Shown here in pieces: positions 55,901 through 61,900 of a stretch of DNA of 64,000 nucleotides (position 1 is the stretch's first letter; each line of letters starts with the position of its first letter). Made by a program: the position numbers. This stretch comes from Escherichia coli (GTDB lineage Bacteria; Pseudomonadota; Gammaproteobacteria; Enterobacterales; Enterobacteriaceae), in the NCBI RefSeq assembly GCF_044324875.1, contig NZ_CP172185.1; one strand, given 5' to 3'.

Positions 55901-58900
55901 GTATAAGGCTGCGATGCGCACTCTGCCCGCGCAGTTTACTGATATCGCCACGCAACTGGCCGGTGGTCAGAGTCCATGGCTGATCCTGTTGCAGCAGGGC
56001 GGTCAGGTGAAGGACTCCTTCGGCGGACTGATCCCCATGTTCCGGGGACTTGCGGGGGCCGTTTCGTTACCAGCTGTCGGGGTGGGGGCTTTGGCTGCAG
56101 CGACAGGAGCGCTGGCGTATGCCTGGTACCAGGGTGACTCAATCCTGTCTGATTTCAGTAAAACGCTCGTATTGTCCGGTAATCAGGCAGGACTGACGGC
56201 AGATCGTATGCTGGCCCTGTCCAGAGCCGGGCAGGCAGCAGGGCTGACGTTTAACCAGACCAGCGAATCACTCAGTGCACTGGTTAAGGCGGGGGTACGC
56301 GGTGAGGCTCAGATTGCATCCATCAGCCAGAGTGTGGCGCGTTTCTCCTCTGCATCCGGCGTGGAGGTGGACAGGGTCGCTGAAGCCTTCGGGAAGCTGA
56401 CCTCTGACCCGACATCGGGGCTGACGGCGATGGCGCGCCAGTTCCATAACGTGACGGCGGAGCAGATTGCGTATGTTGCTCAGTTGCAGCGTTCCGGCGA
56501 TGAAGCAGGGGCATTGCAGGCGGCAAACGAGGCCGCAACGAAAGGGTTTGATGACCAGACCCGTCGACTGAAAGAGAACATGGGCACACTGGAGACCTGG
56601 GCAGACAAAACTGCCGGAGCGTTCAGAAGCATGTGGGACGCTATTCTGGATATTGGTCGCCCGGAGTCCTCTGCTGACATACTGGATAAGGCGCAGAAAG
56701 CCTTTGATGAAGCAGATAAAAAATGGCAGTGGTATCAGAGCCGCAGTCACCGACGGGGTAAAACATCTTCATTTCGTGCGAATCTTCAGGGCGCGTGGGA
56801 TGACAGAGTAAATGCGCAACTGGGGCTTTCAGCGGCCACACTGCAGGCTGATCTTGAAAAAGCCAGTGAGATGGCTGCAAAATGGCATCTGAATCGATCG
56901 CAGTTTGGCATTCGAATCGATCATGATTTGGCATCCATCTCCGATCACAGTTTGGCATCACAATCGATCACGATTTGGCATGCTTCCGATCATTGATTGG
57001 CATCCTGCCAGTCACTCCGGGAATTAACTCTTTTCACCACAGTCTCCATTGCCGTGTTTAAACCAGTGGAGACGTCAATGTCCAGAAAGAGAAAATCCAG
57101 GAGCACTATGGAAACCTGTTTTAAGATCCTTCAGCTCAAGTTCGACAAGAAGCTGACTAACCGTTGTATCGGACTGACGTTACACATCAGCGCCTCAACC
57201 GTTTTTGAGGTTCTTGCCCGCTTCAAAGCCTCTTCTCTGTCATGGCCATTACCTGCTGATATATCCCATGACACGCTGGAGAAACTCATTTTTCCGCCCA
57301 AAGACACCTTTGCATCAGAGCTTGTAATGCCTGACATGTTGTACTTCGATACGGAAATGAGAAAACCAGGTGTGACGCGGCAACTGTTGTGGATGGAATA
57401 CAAGGCACAGGCGGGTAACAAAGCGATGGGATACTCGCACTTCTGCCGTTGCTACCGGGAGTGGAAAAAAACGCGACGTCTCTCCATGCGCCAGGAGCAT
57501 CGTGCCGGCGAAAAGCTTTTTATCGACTTCTGTGGTCCTACGGTTCCTGTTATTAATCCGGACACCGGTGAGATACGCCGCGTGGCAATCTTCGTGGCCG
57601 TAATGGGGGCGTCCAACTATACCTACGTTGAAGCGTGCGAAGGTCAGGACATGATGTCATGGTTAAATGCCCACAGCCGTTGCCTGACCTTCCTGGGCGG
57701 CGTACCGAAGCTGCTCATCCCCGATAACCTCAGAAGCGCAGTGAAAAAGGCCGATCGATATGAGCCTGTCATCAACGACAGTTATCAGGCACTGGCTGAG
57801 CACTATGGCACGGTTATCATCCCGGCCCGACCACGCAAACCTAAAGATAAACCAAAAGCAGAAAACGGCGTCCTCATCGTTGAACGATGGCTTCTTGCCC
57901 GCATCCGTAATGAAACCTTCCACACGCTCAGGGCGCTGAATGCGCGCCTTAGGGAGTTACTGACAGACATGAATAACCGGCCAATGAAGGGGTACGGCAA
58001 TCAAACCCGTGCAGAACGCTTCCGCATACTGGATGCGCCAGCACTCTCTCCGCTGCCTCTGGCACCTTATGAATACACGGAATACAAAGCTGTGAAGGTT
58101 GGCCCTGACTACCACGTTGAATATGCCCGTCACTGGTACTCCGTTCCACACGAACTGGTCGGTCAGCGTCTGTCACTGAAGGCGGGGCAGTCGGTGGTAC
58201 AGCTCTGGCACAAGGGGCAGTGTGTGGCGCAACATCCGCGCAGCACACATGAATATAAACACACAACCAATCCGCTTCACATGCCAGAGCGCCACCGGCA
58301 GCACGGGACATGGACACCGGAACGCCTGATCGAGCAGGGAAAACGTACGGGCCCGTCCACAGGCCGGGTGGTTGAATCCATGCTGAAGGCAAAACCCCAT
58401 CCGGAACTGGCTTATCGTGCAGTTCTGGGGCTGCTGGCACTTCAGAAAAAATACGGCCCGGAACGGCTGGAAAAGGCCTGTTACGTTGCCCTGCACTATA
58501 ACGCCCCTGACAGACGCTTTATCGACAATCTGCTGCGTCACCATCGGGAGAACCTGGAGCTTCCATTATCCCGCCAGGGCGAACAACATCCGGCATATGC
58601 TTCAGAGCATGAAAACCTGCGTGGTCCGGGCTACTACCACTGACAGAAGGAACAACAGTATGAGTGATAACCTGTTAAACAAACTGACCCAACTGAAACT
58701 CCCGGCGATGGCCGGGAGCCTGATACGGCAGCGGGAAACGCCTCAGACCTACGACGAACTGTCGTTCGAGGAAAGGCTGACGCTGCTGGTTGATGACGAG
58801 CTTCTGAGCAGGGAAAACAGCCGTGTGGCACGGTTGAGAAAAAATGCCGGCCTGAAATACCAGGCAACACCGGAAGGGCTGCGCTATCCGGCCTCAAGAG

Positions 58901-61900
58901 GTCTGCGGGCTGAACAGATGAGAGAACTGCTGAACGGCCACTACATAACCCACAGGAAAAACCTGCTGATAACCGGTCCGACAGGATGTGGCAAGAGCTG
59001 GATAGCCAATGCGCTGGGCGAACAGGCATGTCGACAGAAACACAGCGTCCGGTACTGTAGAACCGGGCGATTACTGGAACAACTGGCTCAGGGACGTGTT
59101 GATGGCAGCTGGCTGAAATATCTGAAACAGTTGCAAAAAATACAGGTTCTAATCCTGGACGATCTGGGGCTGGAACAGTTAAGTAACGCCCAGTGTAATG
59201 ACCTTCTGGAGCTCATAGAGGATCGTTACGGACAAAGCAGCACGATAGTGGTAAGCCAGTTCCCGGTAGATAAATGGCATGGTCTGATGGAGAACCCAAC
59301 AACAGCAGATGCCATCCTGGACAGACTGGTACATAACTCACACCGAGTGGTCCTTCAGGGAGAGTCACTGAGGAAAAATCCCCCGGTAGTGGAAAGCAGC
59401 GAAAAAACGCGTTAAAAAGCGGTAGAAAAAGTTAAGTTCCCGGTTGATCGAATGGATGCGAATCGCTGATCGGACTTCGATGCCAATCCGTGATCGAATA
59501 GAGCGGAATACGCAAGATGGCTGCAAAAGATCGTGCCGAATCAGAGGCTTCACGACTCAGGTACACTGAAGAGGCGCAGAAGGCTTACGAACGGCTGCAG
59601 ACACCGCTGGAAAAATATACCGCCCGTCAGGAAGAACTGAACAAGGCACTGAAAGACGGGAAAATCCTGCAGGCAGATTACAACACGCTGATGGCGGCGG
59701 CGAAAAAGGATTATGAAGCGACGCTGAAAAAGCCGAAACAGTCCGGCGTGAAGGTGTCTGCGGGCGATCGTCAGGAAGACAGTGCTCATGCTGCCCTGCT
59801 GACGCTTCAGGCTGAACTCCGGACGCTGGAGAAGCATGCCGGAGCAAATGAGAAAATCAGCCAGCAGCGCCGGGATTTGTGGAAGGCGGAGAGTCAGTTC
59901 GCGGTACTGGAGGAGGCGGCGCAACGTCGCCAGCTGTCTGCACAGGAGAAATCCCTGCTGGCGCATAAAGATGAGACGCTGGAGTACAAACGCCAGCTGG
60001 CGGAACTTGGCGATAAGATTGAACACCAGAAACGGCTGAACGAACTGGTACAGCAGGCGGAGAAATTCGCACAGCAGCAACGGGCAAAACGGGCCGCCAT
60101 TGATGCGAAAAGCCGGGGACTGACTGACCGGCAGGCAGCGCGGGAAGCCACGGAACAGCGCCTGAAGGAACAGTATGGCGATAATCCGCTGGCGCTGAAT
60201 AACGTCATGTCAGAGCAGAAAAAGACCTGGGCGGCTGAAGACCTGCTTCGCGGGAGCTGGATGGCAGGCCTGAAGTCCGGCTGGAGTGAGTGGGAAGAGA
60301 GCGCCACGGACAGTATGTCGCAGGTTAAAAGTGCTGCCACGCAGACCTTTGATGGTATTGCGCAGAATATGGCGGCGATGCTGACCGGCAGTGAACAGAA
60401 CTGGCGCAGCTTCACCCGCTCCGTGCTGTCCATGATGACAGAAATTCTGGTTAAGCAGGCAATGGTGGGGATTGTCGGGAGTATCGGCAGCGTCATTGGC
60501 GGTGCTGCCGGTGGTGGCGCATCAGTGTCAGGCGGTACAGCCATTCAGGCCGCTGCGGCAAAATTCCATTTTGCGACCGGGGGATTTACGGGAACCGGCG
60601 GCAAATATGAGCCAGCGGGGATTGTTCACCGTGGTGAATTTGTCTTCACGAAGGAGGCAACCAGCCGGATTGGTGTCGGCAACCTGTACCGCCTGATGCG
60701 GGGCTATGCGGAAGGTGGTTATGTGGGCGGTGCCGGAAGTCCGGCGCAGATGCGGCGGGCTGAAGGCATTAATTTTAATCAGAACAATCACGTGGTGATT
60801 CAGAACGACGGTACGAATGGTCTGCCAGGTCCACAGATGATGAAGGCAGTGTATGACATGGCCCGCAAGGGTGCCCGTGATGAAATTCAGGCACAGATGC
60901 GCGATGGTGGTCTGTTCTCCGGAGGTGGACGATGAAAACCTTCCGCTGGAAAGTGAAACCCGGTATGGATGTGGCTTCGGCCCCTTCTGTAAGAAAGGTG
61001 CGCTTTGGTGATGGCTATTCCCAGCGAGCGCCTGCCGGGCTGAATGCCAACCTGAAAACGTACAGCGTGACGCTTTCTGTTCCCCGTTGGGAGGCCACGG
61101 CGCTGGAGTCGTTTCTGGCTGAGCACGGGGGCTGGAAGGCCTTTCTGTGGACGCCGCCTTATGAGTGGCGGCAGATAAAGGTGACCTGCGCAAAATGGTC
61201 GTCGCGGGTCAGTATGCTGCGTGTTGAGTTCAGCGCAGAGTTTGAACAGGTGGTGAACTGATGCAGGATATCCGGCAGGAAACACTGAATGAATGCACCC
61301 GTGCGGAGCAGTCGGCCAGCGTGGTGCTCTGGGAAATCGATCTGACAGAGGTCGGTGGCGAACGTTATTTTTTCTGTAATGAGCAGAACGAAAAAGGTGA
61401 GCCGGTCACCTGGCAGGAGCGGCAGTATCAGCCGTATCCCATTCAGGGGAGTGGTTTTGAACTGAATGGCAAAGGTACCAGTACGCGCCCCACGCTGACG
61501 GTTTCTAACCTGTACGGTATGGTCACCGGTATGGTGGAAGATATGCAGAGTCTGGTCGGCGGAACGGTGGTCCGGCGTAAAGTTTATGCCCGTTTTCTGG
61601 ATGCGGTGAACTTCGTCAACGGAAACCGTGACGCCGATCCGGAGCAGGAGGTGATCAGCCGCTGGCGCATCGAGCAGTGCAGTGATTTGACAGCGGTCAG
61701 CGCGACCTTTGTACTGGCCACGCCGACGGAAACGGACGGCGCTGTTTTTCCGGGACGTATTATGCTGGCCAACACCTGCACCTGGACCTATCGCGGCGAT
61801 GAGTGCGGTTATAGCGGTCCGGCGGTCGCGGATGAATATGACCAGCCGACGTCCGATATCACGAAGGATAAATGCAGCAAATGCCTGAGTGGCTGTAAGT

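What the first reader, a model, noticed from the sequence alone, without database searches (positions are those of the whole stretch)
56860..59530. IS21-family element in tape-measure gene H, flanked by an unusually long 12-bp direct repeat
istA/istB with multiple tggcat-type terminal repeats interrupt H. The dodecamer atggctgcaaaa occurs on both flanks in the H reading frame, longer than the usual 4-8 bp duplication for this family. Exact IS ends could not be fixed by eye.
Basis: seen in the sequence. Interest (0 to 1): 0.35.

Follow-up and report, generated by a model that had tools for sequence, protein, structure and literature searches.

The report
Ordinary IS21-type insertion in tail gene
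A common, recently active IS21-family insertion sequence has split the tape-measure gene of a lambda-like prophage, and the "unusually long" flanking repeat is an ordinary 7-bp target duplication plus 7 bases of the element's own tip that happen to match the gene next to it.

Summary
AGATGGCTGCAAAA (14 bp) flanks an istA/istB element inside a lambda-type H gene.

58 other distinct copies of the same element, in E. coli chromosomes, plasmids and prophages, all begin TGCAAAATGGCATC. The element is therefore 56876-59514 (2639 bp, TG...CA), not 56883 onward. The true duplication is AGATGGC, 7 bp (56869-56875 and 59515-59521).

The other 7 repeated bases are the element's left tip (56876-56882) on one side and native H sequence (59522-59528) on the other. 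Removing the element and one duplication copy restores an open 2580-nt H gene. That is the length of the two intact homologues fetched, which carry this sequence once.

At 55 other insertion sites the element makes duplications of 4 to 7 bp (mode 6; 7 bp at 11 sites). So 7 bp is normal.

One minor side result emerged. Target bases just outside the duplication, next to the element's left end, weakly resemble its tip TGCA (85/220 matches against 55 expected). This makes the coincidence about 5 times likelier, but it remains mostly chance (about 3e-4 per insertion).

Verdict: a known element behaving normally. Low interest.

The parts
55710..56875 (+). 5' fragment of the lambda-type tape-measure gene H (codons 1-388 plus 2 nt). 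As it stands, the ORF runs on into the IS and stops at 56996.
   Evidence: Pfam TMP_2, E 1.7e-69. Ungapped alignment to intact 2580-nt tape-measure genes. ORF list. Translation.
56869..56875 (+). Left copy of the 7-bp target-site duplication AGATGGC.
   Evidence: Sequence. Intact homologues carry this heptamer once.
56876..59514 (+). Complete IS21-family insertion sequence, 2639 bp, 5'-TGCAAAATGGCATC...GGAATACGCA-3'. PGAP names the identical IstB 'ISSso4 family'.
   Evidence: 58 other distinct copies share exactly these ends with unrelated flanks. The window copy differs at 0 of 2639 positions from L003, L004 and L007. The 2632-bp query that omitted the tip matched at 100% identity.
56876..56882 (+). 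Left tip of the IS (TGCAAAA).
   Evidence: Present immediately before TGGCATC in every other copy, whatever the flank.
56876..57020 (+). Left terminal inverted repeat region with six TTGGCAT...CGATCA units at 22-24 bp spacing (presumed IstA binding sites).
   Evidence: the repeat finder families D1/D2 and inverted pairs I1, I2, I5-I8 and I10. Motif positions 56882, 56905, 56928, 56952, 56975 and 56997. A 23-bp spacing of IS21 TIR repeats is described in PMC10122671.
57108..58643 (+). istA, DDE transposase, 511 aa.
   Evidence: Pfam rve + Mu-transpos_C_2. NCBIfam transpos_IS21, E 9e-85. The same coordinates are annotated as istA by PGAP in other copies. An in-frame ATG also lies upstream at 57078.
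58660..59415 (+). istB, AAA+ helper ATPase, 251 aa.
   Evidence: Pfam IstB_IS21, E 1e-60. NCBIfam IS21_help_AAA, E 9e-77. The exact protein is indexed in 12,539 blocks of the public collection.
59440..59514 (+). Right terminal inverted repeat region with three repeat units, ending ...ATACGCA.
   Evidence: Inverted pairs I1, I2 and I5-I8 and direct family D11. IRL/IRR alignment and motif positions.
59515..59521 (+). Right copy of the 7-bp target-site duplication AGATGGC.
59522..59528 (+). Native H sequence TGCAAAA (codons GC|T GCA AAA). It happens to equal the IS left tip and so extends the apparent repeat to 14 bp.
   Evidence: 20 intact H homologues read AGCAAAA here, as part of ...GAGATGGCAGCAAAAGATCG....
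59522..60935 (+). 3' fragment of H. With the duplicated ATG at 59517 it appears as a 472-aa ORF, 59517-60935.
   Evidence: Pfam Tape_meas_lam_C. Joining 55710-56875 to 59522-60935 gives one open 2580-nt / 859-aa ORF.

Best explanation
A 2639-bp IS21-family insertion sequence (ISSso4-type by PGAP naming; istA transposase plus istB AAA+ helper) transposed into gene H of a lambdoid prophage.

By the established IS21 mechanism, IstB binds and bends the target DNA. IstA joins the two CA-3' ends of the element to staggered positions on the two target strands. Gap repair then duplicates the bases in between. The stagger here was 7 bp, which gave the duplication AGATGGC.

The target bases immediately after the duplicated heptamer are TGCAAAA, the same as the first 7 bases of the element. 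The sequence therefore reads AGATGGC-TGCAAAA on both sides and looks like a 12- or 14-bp duplication.

The match is mostly coincidence. A weak preference of this element to place its left end next to TGCA-like target bases makes it somewhat more likely.

The insertion splits the tape-measure gene, so the prophage should be unable to build tails.

Shown: element boundaries, 7-bp duplication, single-copy empty site in homologues, restored ORF.
Inferred: the biochemical steps (from IS21/IS5376 studies), recent activity, and loss of phage function.
For: 1. Boundaries. All 58 other distinct copies begin TGCAAAATGGCATC and end GGAATACGCA, with unrelated flanks. The two tips align as an inverted repeat, TGC....T...CTCT.ATTCGATC.
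2. Duplication. With these ends, the window has AGATGGC on both sides.
3. Normal length. 55 other sites give duplications of 4 bp (3 sites), 5 bp (14), 6 bp (27) and 7 bp (11).
4. Empty site. The two E. coli homologues aligned without gaps, plus 18 IMG/VR contigs that contain the site, read ...GTGAGATGGCAGCAAAAGATCG... once.
5. Restoration. Deleting 56876-59521 restores a single 2580-nt ORF, the same length as the two fetched homologues.
6. Family identity.; PGAP annotation.
7. Chance level. TGCAAAA occurs 23 times on both strands of the 61-kb host part of the window, a rate of 1.9e-4 per position and orientation. A position-weight estimate from the 55 sites gives 2.8e-4.
8. Weak bias. The four bases outside the duplication on the left-end side match TGCA at 85/220 against 55 expected (binomial p 8e-6). 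This is the highest of 28 registers and holds in both sub-samples: 50/140 and 35/80.
9. Mechanism. IstA/IstB roles and 5-bp staggered cuts in IS5376 are from PMC10122671 and PMC11208146.
Against: - No intact H gene with the exact T allele (GAGATGGCTGCAAAAGATCG) was found in viral, genome-representative or metagenome scans. All 20 intact relatives have A at the position of the T. The pre-insertion sequence of this particular allele is therefore inferred, not observed.
- A 7/7 match is rare per insertion (about 3e-4).
- ISfinder could not be consulted, so the element's official name, length and listed duplication size are not verified.
Confidence: 0.93

Rival explanations
1. One reading: the element starts at TGGCATC (56883) and transposition produced an exceptional 12-14 bp target-site duplication.
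For: The 14-mer AGATGGCTGCAAAA is identical on both sides, and the 12-mer is far above chance. The intact gene carries the sequence once, apart from one base.
Against: - All 58 other distinct copies carry TGCAAAA directly before TGGCATC in unrelated contexts, so those 7 bp move with the element.
- None of the 55 sites with a recoverable duplication exceeds 7 bp.
- The right tip has a matching 7-bp segment, TGCGTAT (on the complementary strand), outside its first repeat unit.
Confidence: 0.02
2. The match between the element's tip and the adjacent target is not a coincidence. The transposase complex preferentially integrates where the target looks like its own terminus, and the window is a strong example of such end-mimic targeting.
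For: - The four bases outside the duplication next to the left end match TGCA at 85/220 against 55 expected. This is the top of 28 registers and is reproduced in two independent sub-samples.
- The first position is a pyrimidine at 40/55 sites and the fourth is A at 24/55.
- The mirrored side shows the same trend weakly: 68/220, p 0.05.
Against: - The bias covers only about 4 bases and is weak.
- No other site among the 55 matches more than 5/7. The count of sites with at least 5/7 (3) is also reached in shifted control registers.
- The AAA part of the tip shows no enrichment.
- Even with the bias, the estimated probability of TGCAAAA is 2.8e-4.
- IS21/IS5376 is reported to lack strong target specificity (PMC10122671, PMC11208146).
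Confidence: 0.3
3. The flanks are not a simple insertion product. The structure might arise from recombination between two copies of the element, from a tandem-dimer remnant, or from misassembly.
For: Recombinant copies do exist elsewhere. L061/L062 and L051/L054 have reciprocally swapped 6-bp duplications, and L003, L008 and L045 have none.
Against: - Here the two flanks are contiguous halves of one gene with a perfect 7-bp duplication.
- They restore a 2580-nt ORF collinear with intact homologues.
- GCAAAAGATCG is native H sequence in 20 relatives, so no remnant of a second copy is needed.
- Only one copy of the element's end is present in the window.
Confidence: 0.02

Closest known systems
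ISSso4-type IS21-family element of Shigella/E. coli (NCBI PGAP name: 'IS21-like element ISSso4 family helper ATPase IstB', WP_001282653.1; IstA WP_045147483.1)
   Same: - 0 differences over the full 2639 bp from three of the fetched copies, and 100% identity over the 2632 bp searched.
- Same istA/istB coordinates as annotated in other copies.
- Same ends.
- ISSso4 is listed among ISfinder elements of S. sonnei in bioRxiv 10.64898/2026.03.18.712784.
   Different: Nothing detected in the element itself. Only the insertion site is particular. The ISfinder record could not be consulted, so the name rests on PGAP's label.
IS21 / IS5376 (the biochemically and structurally studied IS21-family members)
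   Same: - Two genes, istA (HTH + DDE + beta-barrel) and istB (AAA+).
- TG...CA ends.
- Terminal repeats made of several direct-repeat units about 23 bp apart.
- Short staggered-cut duplications.
(PMC10122671, PMC11208146.)
   Different: - IS5376 gave uniform 5-bp duplications in vitro. This element gives 4-7 bp, mode 6, in natural copies.
- It has six repeat units at the left end and three at the right, against the two per end (L1-L2, R1-R2) described as usual for IS21.
Tape-measure protein gpH of phage lambda and lambdoid prophages
   Same: - TMP_2 and Tape_meas_lam_C domains.
- About 82-83% DNA identity of the 5' fragment to lambda-type phages.
- About 90% identity to E. coli prophage genes of 2580 nt.
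- Gene order V, G, T, H, M, L, K, I (assignment of letters is from my knowledge of lambda).
   Different: Split at codon 389 by the IS. This allele is not found uninterrupted in the collections searched.

Membership tests
IS21 family of insertion sequences | Two consecutive genes: a long istA (DDE transposase) followed by a shorter istB (AAA+ helper ATPase). | tested here: met
   istA is 511 aa: Pfam rve + Mu-transpos_C_2, NCBIfam transpos_IS21 at 284.7 bits against a cut-off of 160. istB is 251 aa: Pfam IstB_IS21 at 205.7 bits, NCBIfam IS21_help_AAA at 257.8 bits against a cut-off of 200. The two genes are 16 nt apart.
IS21 family of insertion sequences | Terminal inverted repeats ending 5'-TG...CA-3'. 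| tested here: met
   The ends TGCAAAATGGCATC... and ...GGAATACGCA are defined by 58 other distinct copies. IRL/IRR alignment.
IS21 family of insertion sequences | Several direct-repeat units (transposase binding sites) inside each terminal repeat, about 23 bp apart. | tested here: met
   Six units on the left (56882-57004) at 22-24 bp spacing and three on the right. The feature is described in PMC10122671. Binding by IstA was not tested.
IS21 family of insertion sequences | Short target-site duplication. The 4-8 bp family range is from my knowledge of the ISfinder family table. A 5-bp duplication for many members is stated in PMC11208146. | tested here: met
   7 bp (AGATGGC) in the window. 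4-7 bp at 55 other sites of the same element.
IS21 family of insertion sequences | Demonstrated transposition dependent on IstA and IstB. | not testable with these tools
   There is only indirect evidence. Dozens of near-identical copies (0-4 differences among those compared) lie at different sites in many genomes.
Lambda-type tail tape-measure protein (gpH) | TMP_2 N-terminal region and lambda tape-measure C-terminal domain, in a tail gene cluster. | tested here: met
   Pfam PF06791 (E 1.7e-69) in the 5' fragment and PF09718 (E 1.5e-21) in the 3' fragment. The restored ORF is 859 aa. Neighbouring tail and portal genes.

The most novel reading that the evidence does not exclude
This IS21-family element has a weak, previously unremarked target bias. 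It tends to join its left end next to target bases that mimic its own terminal TGCA, with a partly mirrored signal on the other side, and it uses a variable 4-7 bp stagger rather than a fixed one. The H insertion, with a perfect 7-base mimic, would then be an extreme case of end-mimic targeting rather than pure coincidence.
Probability: 0.3. Interest if true: 0.2.

Novelty: already known. Interest (0 to 1): 0.08.

Why it matters
It matters little beyond annotation.
- It sets the exact limits of the element (56876-59514).
- It shows that the prophage's tape-measure gene is disrupted, so the prophage is probably defective.
- It removes an apparent exception to the IS21 family's short target duplications.
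- The practical lesson is that element ends should be fixed by comparing copies before a duplication is measured. A tip that happens to match the target inflates the apparent repeat.
- The variable 4-7 bp duplication and the weak TGCA-like bias could interest people working on IstA/IstB target capture, but they are small effects from 55 natural sites.

Tried and rejected
- Exact empty site in E. coli: a 111-nt junction query against complete E. coli genomes found no match. This H allele is not in that collection.
- Exact-pattern scans for the T-allele empty site: the viral-contig scan returned 18 intact H genes, all with A. The genome-representative and metagenome scans returned only unrelated chance matches in Halanaerobiaceae and other MAGs.
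- IstA search in viral contigs: this gave only two further complete copies.
- Full 7-base tip mimicry as a general rule: the total 7-mer matches at the true register (125/385) are equalled by shifted control registers. The count of sites with at least 5/7 (3) is also reached in controls. Only the first four bases show a signal.
- Literature on the ISSso4 duplication length or IS21 insertion next to end-like sequences: nothing usable was found. PMC93646 is not held. My recollection that IS21 prefers to insert near IS21 ends therefore remains unverified and is not used as evidence.
- Tandem-dimer remnant and recombination scenarios: rejected because GCAAAAGATCG is native H sequence and the flanks are collinear.
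Full report
**What is there**

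The region 56860-59530 contains two same-strand ORFs. Both match the IS21 family strongly.
- istA, 57108-58643: Pfam rve and Mu-transpos_C_2; NCBIfam transpos_IS21 at 284.7 bits against a cut-off of 160.
- istB, 58660-59415: Pfam IstB_IS21, E 1e-60; NCBIfam IS21_help_AAA at 257.8 bits against a cut-off of 200.

The flanking ORFs are the two halves of a lambda-type tape-measure gene. The upstream half has TMP_2 (E 1.7e-69) and the downstream half has Tape_meas_lam_C (E 1.5e-21).

The chance expectation is 0.03. The identity actually extends to 14 bp, AGATGGCTGCAAAA (56869-56882 and 59515-59528).

The 'tggcat' repeats are also real. Six TTGGCAT...CGATCA units lie 22-24 bp apart at the left end, with three counterparts at the right end. 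IS21-family terminal repeats are described the same way in PMC10122671.

**Where the element really ends**

A megablast of 56883-59516 against 5,426 complete E. coli genomes found matches in 1,744 genomes. A place covering at least 80% of the query occurs in 225 genomes, and many hits are 100% identical.

I fetched copies with their flanks from three sources:
- E. coli records;
- viral contigs;
- the public assembly index, using the exact IstA and IstB proteins.

This gave 58 distinct copies in unrelated contexts. Every one has TGCAAAA directly before TGGCATC and ends ...GGAATACGCA, and the flanks beyond these points are unrelated.

The mobile unit is therefore 56876-59514, 2639 bp, with TG...CA ends. 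The two tips align as an inverted repeat. Each has a 7-base tip (TGCAAAA on the left, TGCGTAT on the right when read on the complementary strand) outside the first repeat unit. The window copy has no differences over its full 2639 bp from three of the fetched copies, L003, L004 and L007.

**What the repeat is**

With these ends, the sequence reads ...GTG-AGATGGC-[TGCAAAATGGCATC...ATACGCA]-AGATGGC-TGCAAAAGATCG....
- The target-site duplication is AGATGGC, 7 bp.
- The remaining 7 repeated bases are the element's own left tip on one side and native H sequence on the other.

Three checks agree.
1. The two E. coli homologues I fetched are about 90% identical and align without gaps. Together with 18 IMG/VR contigs that contain the site, they read ...GTGAGATGGCAGCAAAAGATCG... 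once.
2. Joining 55710-56875 to 59522-60935 gives one open 2580-nt, 859-aa ORF. That is exactly the annotated length of the two fetched homologues.
3. At 55 other sites where a duplication can be read, its length is 4 bp (3 sites), 5 bp (14), 6 bp (27) or 7 bp (11), and never longer. This count includes two pairs of copies whose duplications had been swapped by recombination between copies.

Seven base pairs is thus ordinary for this element.

**Is the 7-base match between tip and target chance?**

Per insertion it is rare.
- TGCAAAA occurs 23 times on the two strands of the 61 kb of host sequence in the window. That is 1.9e-4 per position and orientation.
- None of the 55 other sites matches the tip at more than 5 of 7 positions.
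- The number of sites reaching 5 of 7 (three) is also reached in shifted control registers.

There is nevertheless a weak signal at the first four bases outside the duplication, on the side joined to the left end.
- They match TGCA at 85 of 220 positions against 55 expected (binomial p 8e-6).
- This is the highest of 28 registers tested.
- It is seen in both sub-samples that I collected separately: 50/140 and 35/80.
- The mirrored positions on the other side show the same tendency weakly: 68/220, p 0.05.

A position-weight estimate from these sites puts the probability of TGCAAAA at 2.8e-4, about five times the uniform value.

My reading is that the coincidence is mostly chance, helped a little by a weak target preference. 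It came to attention only because it made the repeat look odd.

The one base where the window differs from all 20 intact relatives is the T of TGCAAAA, which is A in them. It is a synonymous third-codon position (GCT versus GCA). It sits among several other synonymous differences in an allele that is about 15% diverged in the 120 nt around the site, so a polymorphism is the simplest account. I could not find the T allele uninterrupted anywhere, so this step is inferred.

**How it works**

The mechanism rests on published work on IS21/IS5376 (PMC10122671, PMC11208146), not on anything tested here.
- IstB, an AAA+ ATPase, assembles on and bends the target DNA and recruits IstA.
- An IstA tetramer is bound to the repeat units in the two ends.
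- IstA joins the CA-3' ends of the element to staggered phosphates on the two target strands.
- Repair of the gaps produces the duplication.

The dozens of near-identical copies at different sites suggest the element has been active recently (inference).

The consequence for the host element is a split tape-measure gene. The 5' part now ends after 37 foreign codons, at 56996. The 3' part is left with only the duplicated ATG at 59517. The prophage should therefore be tail-defective (inference).

**Context**

Bases 1-23,000 are E. coli-type chromosome (bglX, dld, dusC, mdtQ and others). The best identity to complete E. coli genomes is about 98.4%. The strain is therefore outside that collection, perhaps a Shigella, where ISSso4 was named.

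A tyrosine integrase gene at 23655-24941 is followed by a lambdoid prophage that runs to the end of the window. Its recognisable genes include a CI-like repressor, a helicase and a primase, a porin gene, two tRNAs, lysozyme, lambda-type portal, protease and tail genes.

**Verdict**

This is a known element inserted in the ordinary way, and I score it low. The only mildly new points are the variable 4-7 bp duplication and the weak TGCA-like target bias. Both rest on 55 natural sites and need a larger sample.

Noticed in passing
L003-L014, L040-L069, L075-L094 (other copies of the element): This element does not make a fixed-length duplication. 55 sites give 4 bp (3 sites), 5 bp (14), 6 bp (27) and 7 bp (11). 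IS5376 of the same family gave uniform 5-bp repeats in vitro (PMC10122671).
   Followed up: yes
Same loci, the four bases just outside the duplication: There is a weak target bias resembling the element's own tip: Y-R-C-A outward from the duplication. It scores 85/220 matches to TGCA on the left-end side and 68/220 on the mirrored side. A second, unexplained peak (78/220) appears 5 bases further out on the left-end side.
   Followed up: partly
L061/L062 (CP087294.1) and L051/L054 (JAPWXX010000001.1): Pairs of copies within one genome have reciprocally exchanged 6-bp duplications (CGTAAA/TCTGGT and CACAGG/GTCATT). This is the signature of inversions or other rearrangements by recombination between copies. 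L003, L008 and L045 lack any duplication.
   Followed up: partly
L058, L004, L005, L062, L064, L089: The same element repeatedly sits in prophage genes elsewhere. L058 is in lambda-type gene M (flank ...EHGGWKAFLW...). Others are in a tail fibre assembly gene, a terminase, a P2-type region and lysis regions. Whether prophages are over-represented was not tested.
   Followed up: no
window 59522: The T of the native TGCAAAA is A in all 20 intact H homologues seen. It is a synonymous GCT/GCA difference. The T allele was not found uninterrupted in any collection scanned.
   Followed up: yes
window 37710-38813 (-): A porin gene of the OmpF/OmpC/PhoE family lies inside the prophage, upstream of the lysis genes. 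The best NCBIfam hit is OmpF at 519.6 bits, below that model's cut-off of 583.
   Followed up: no
window 39412-39562 (+): Two adjacent tRNA genes lie inside the prophage (Rfam tRNA, 67.8 and 31.2 bits).
   Followed up: no
window 13533-13613 (+): An Rfam Peptidase-S11 RNA motif (72.8 bits) lies directly upstream of the ORF at 13609-14550 in the chromosomal part of the window.
   Followed up: no
window 1-23000: The chromosomal flank is at best about 98.4% identical to any of 5,426 complete E. coli genomes. The host is therefore an Escherichia/Shigella lineage not in that collection. The prophage integrase is at 23655-24941 (-).
   Followed up: partly
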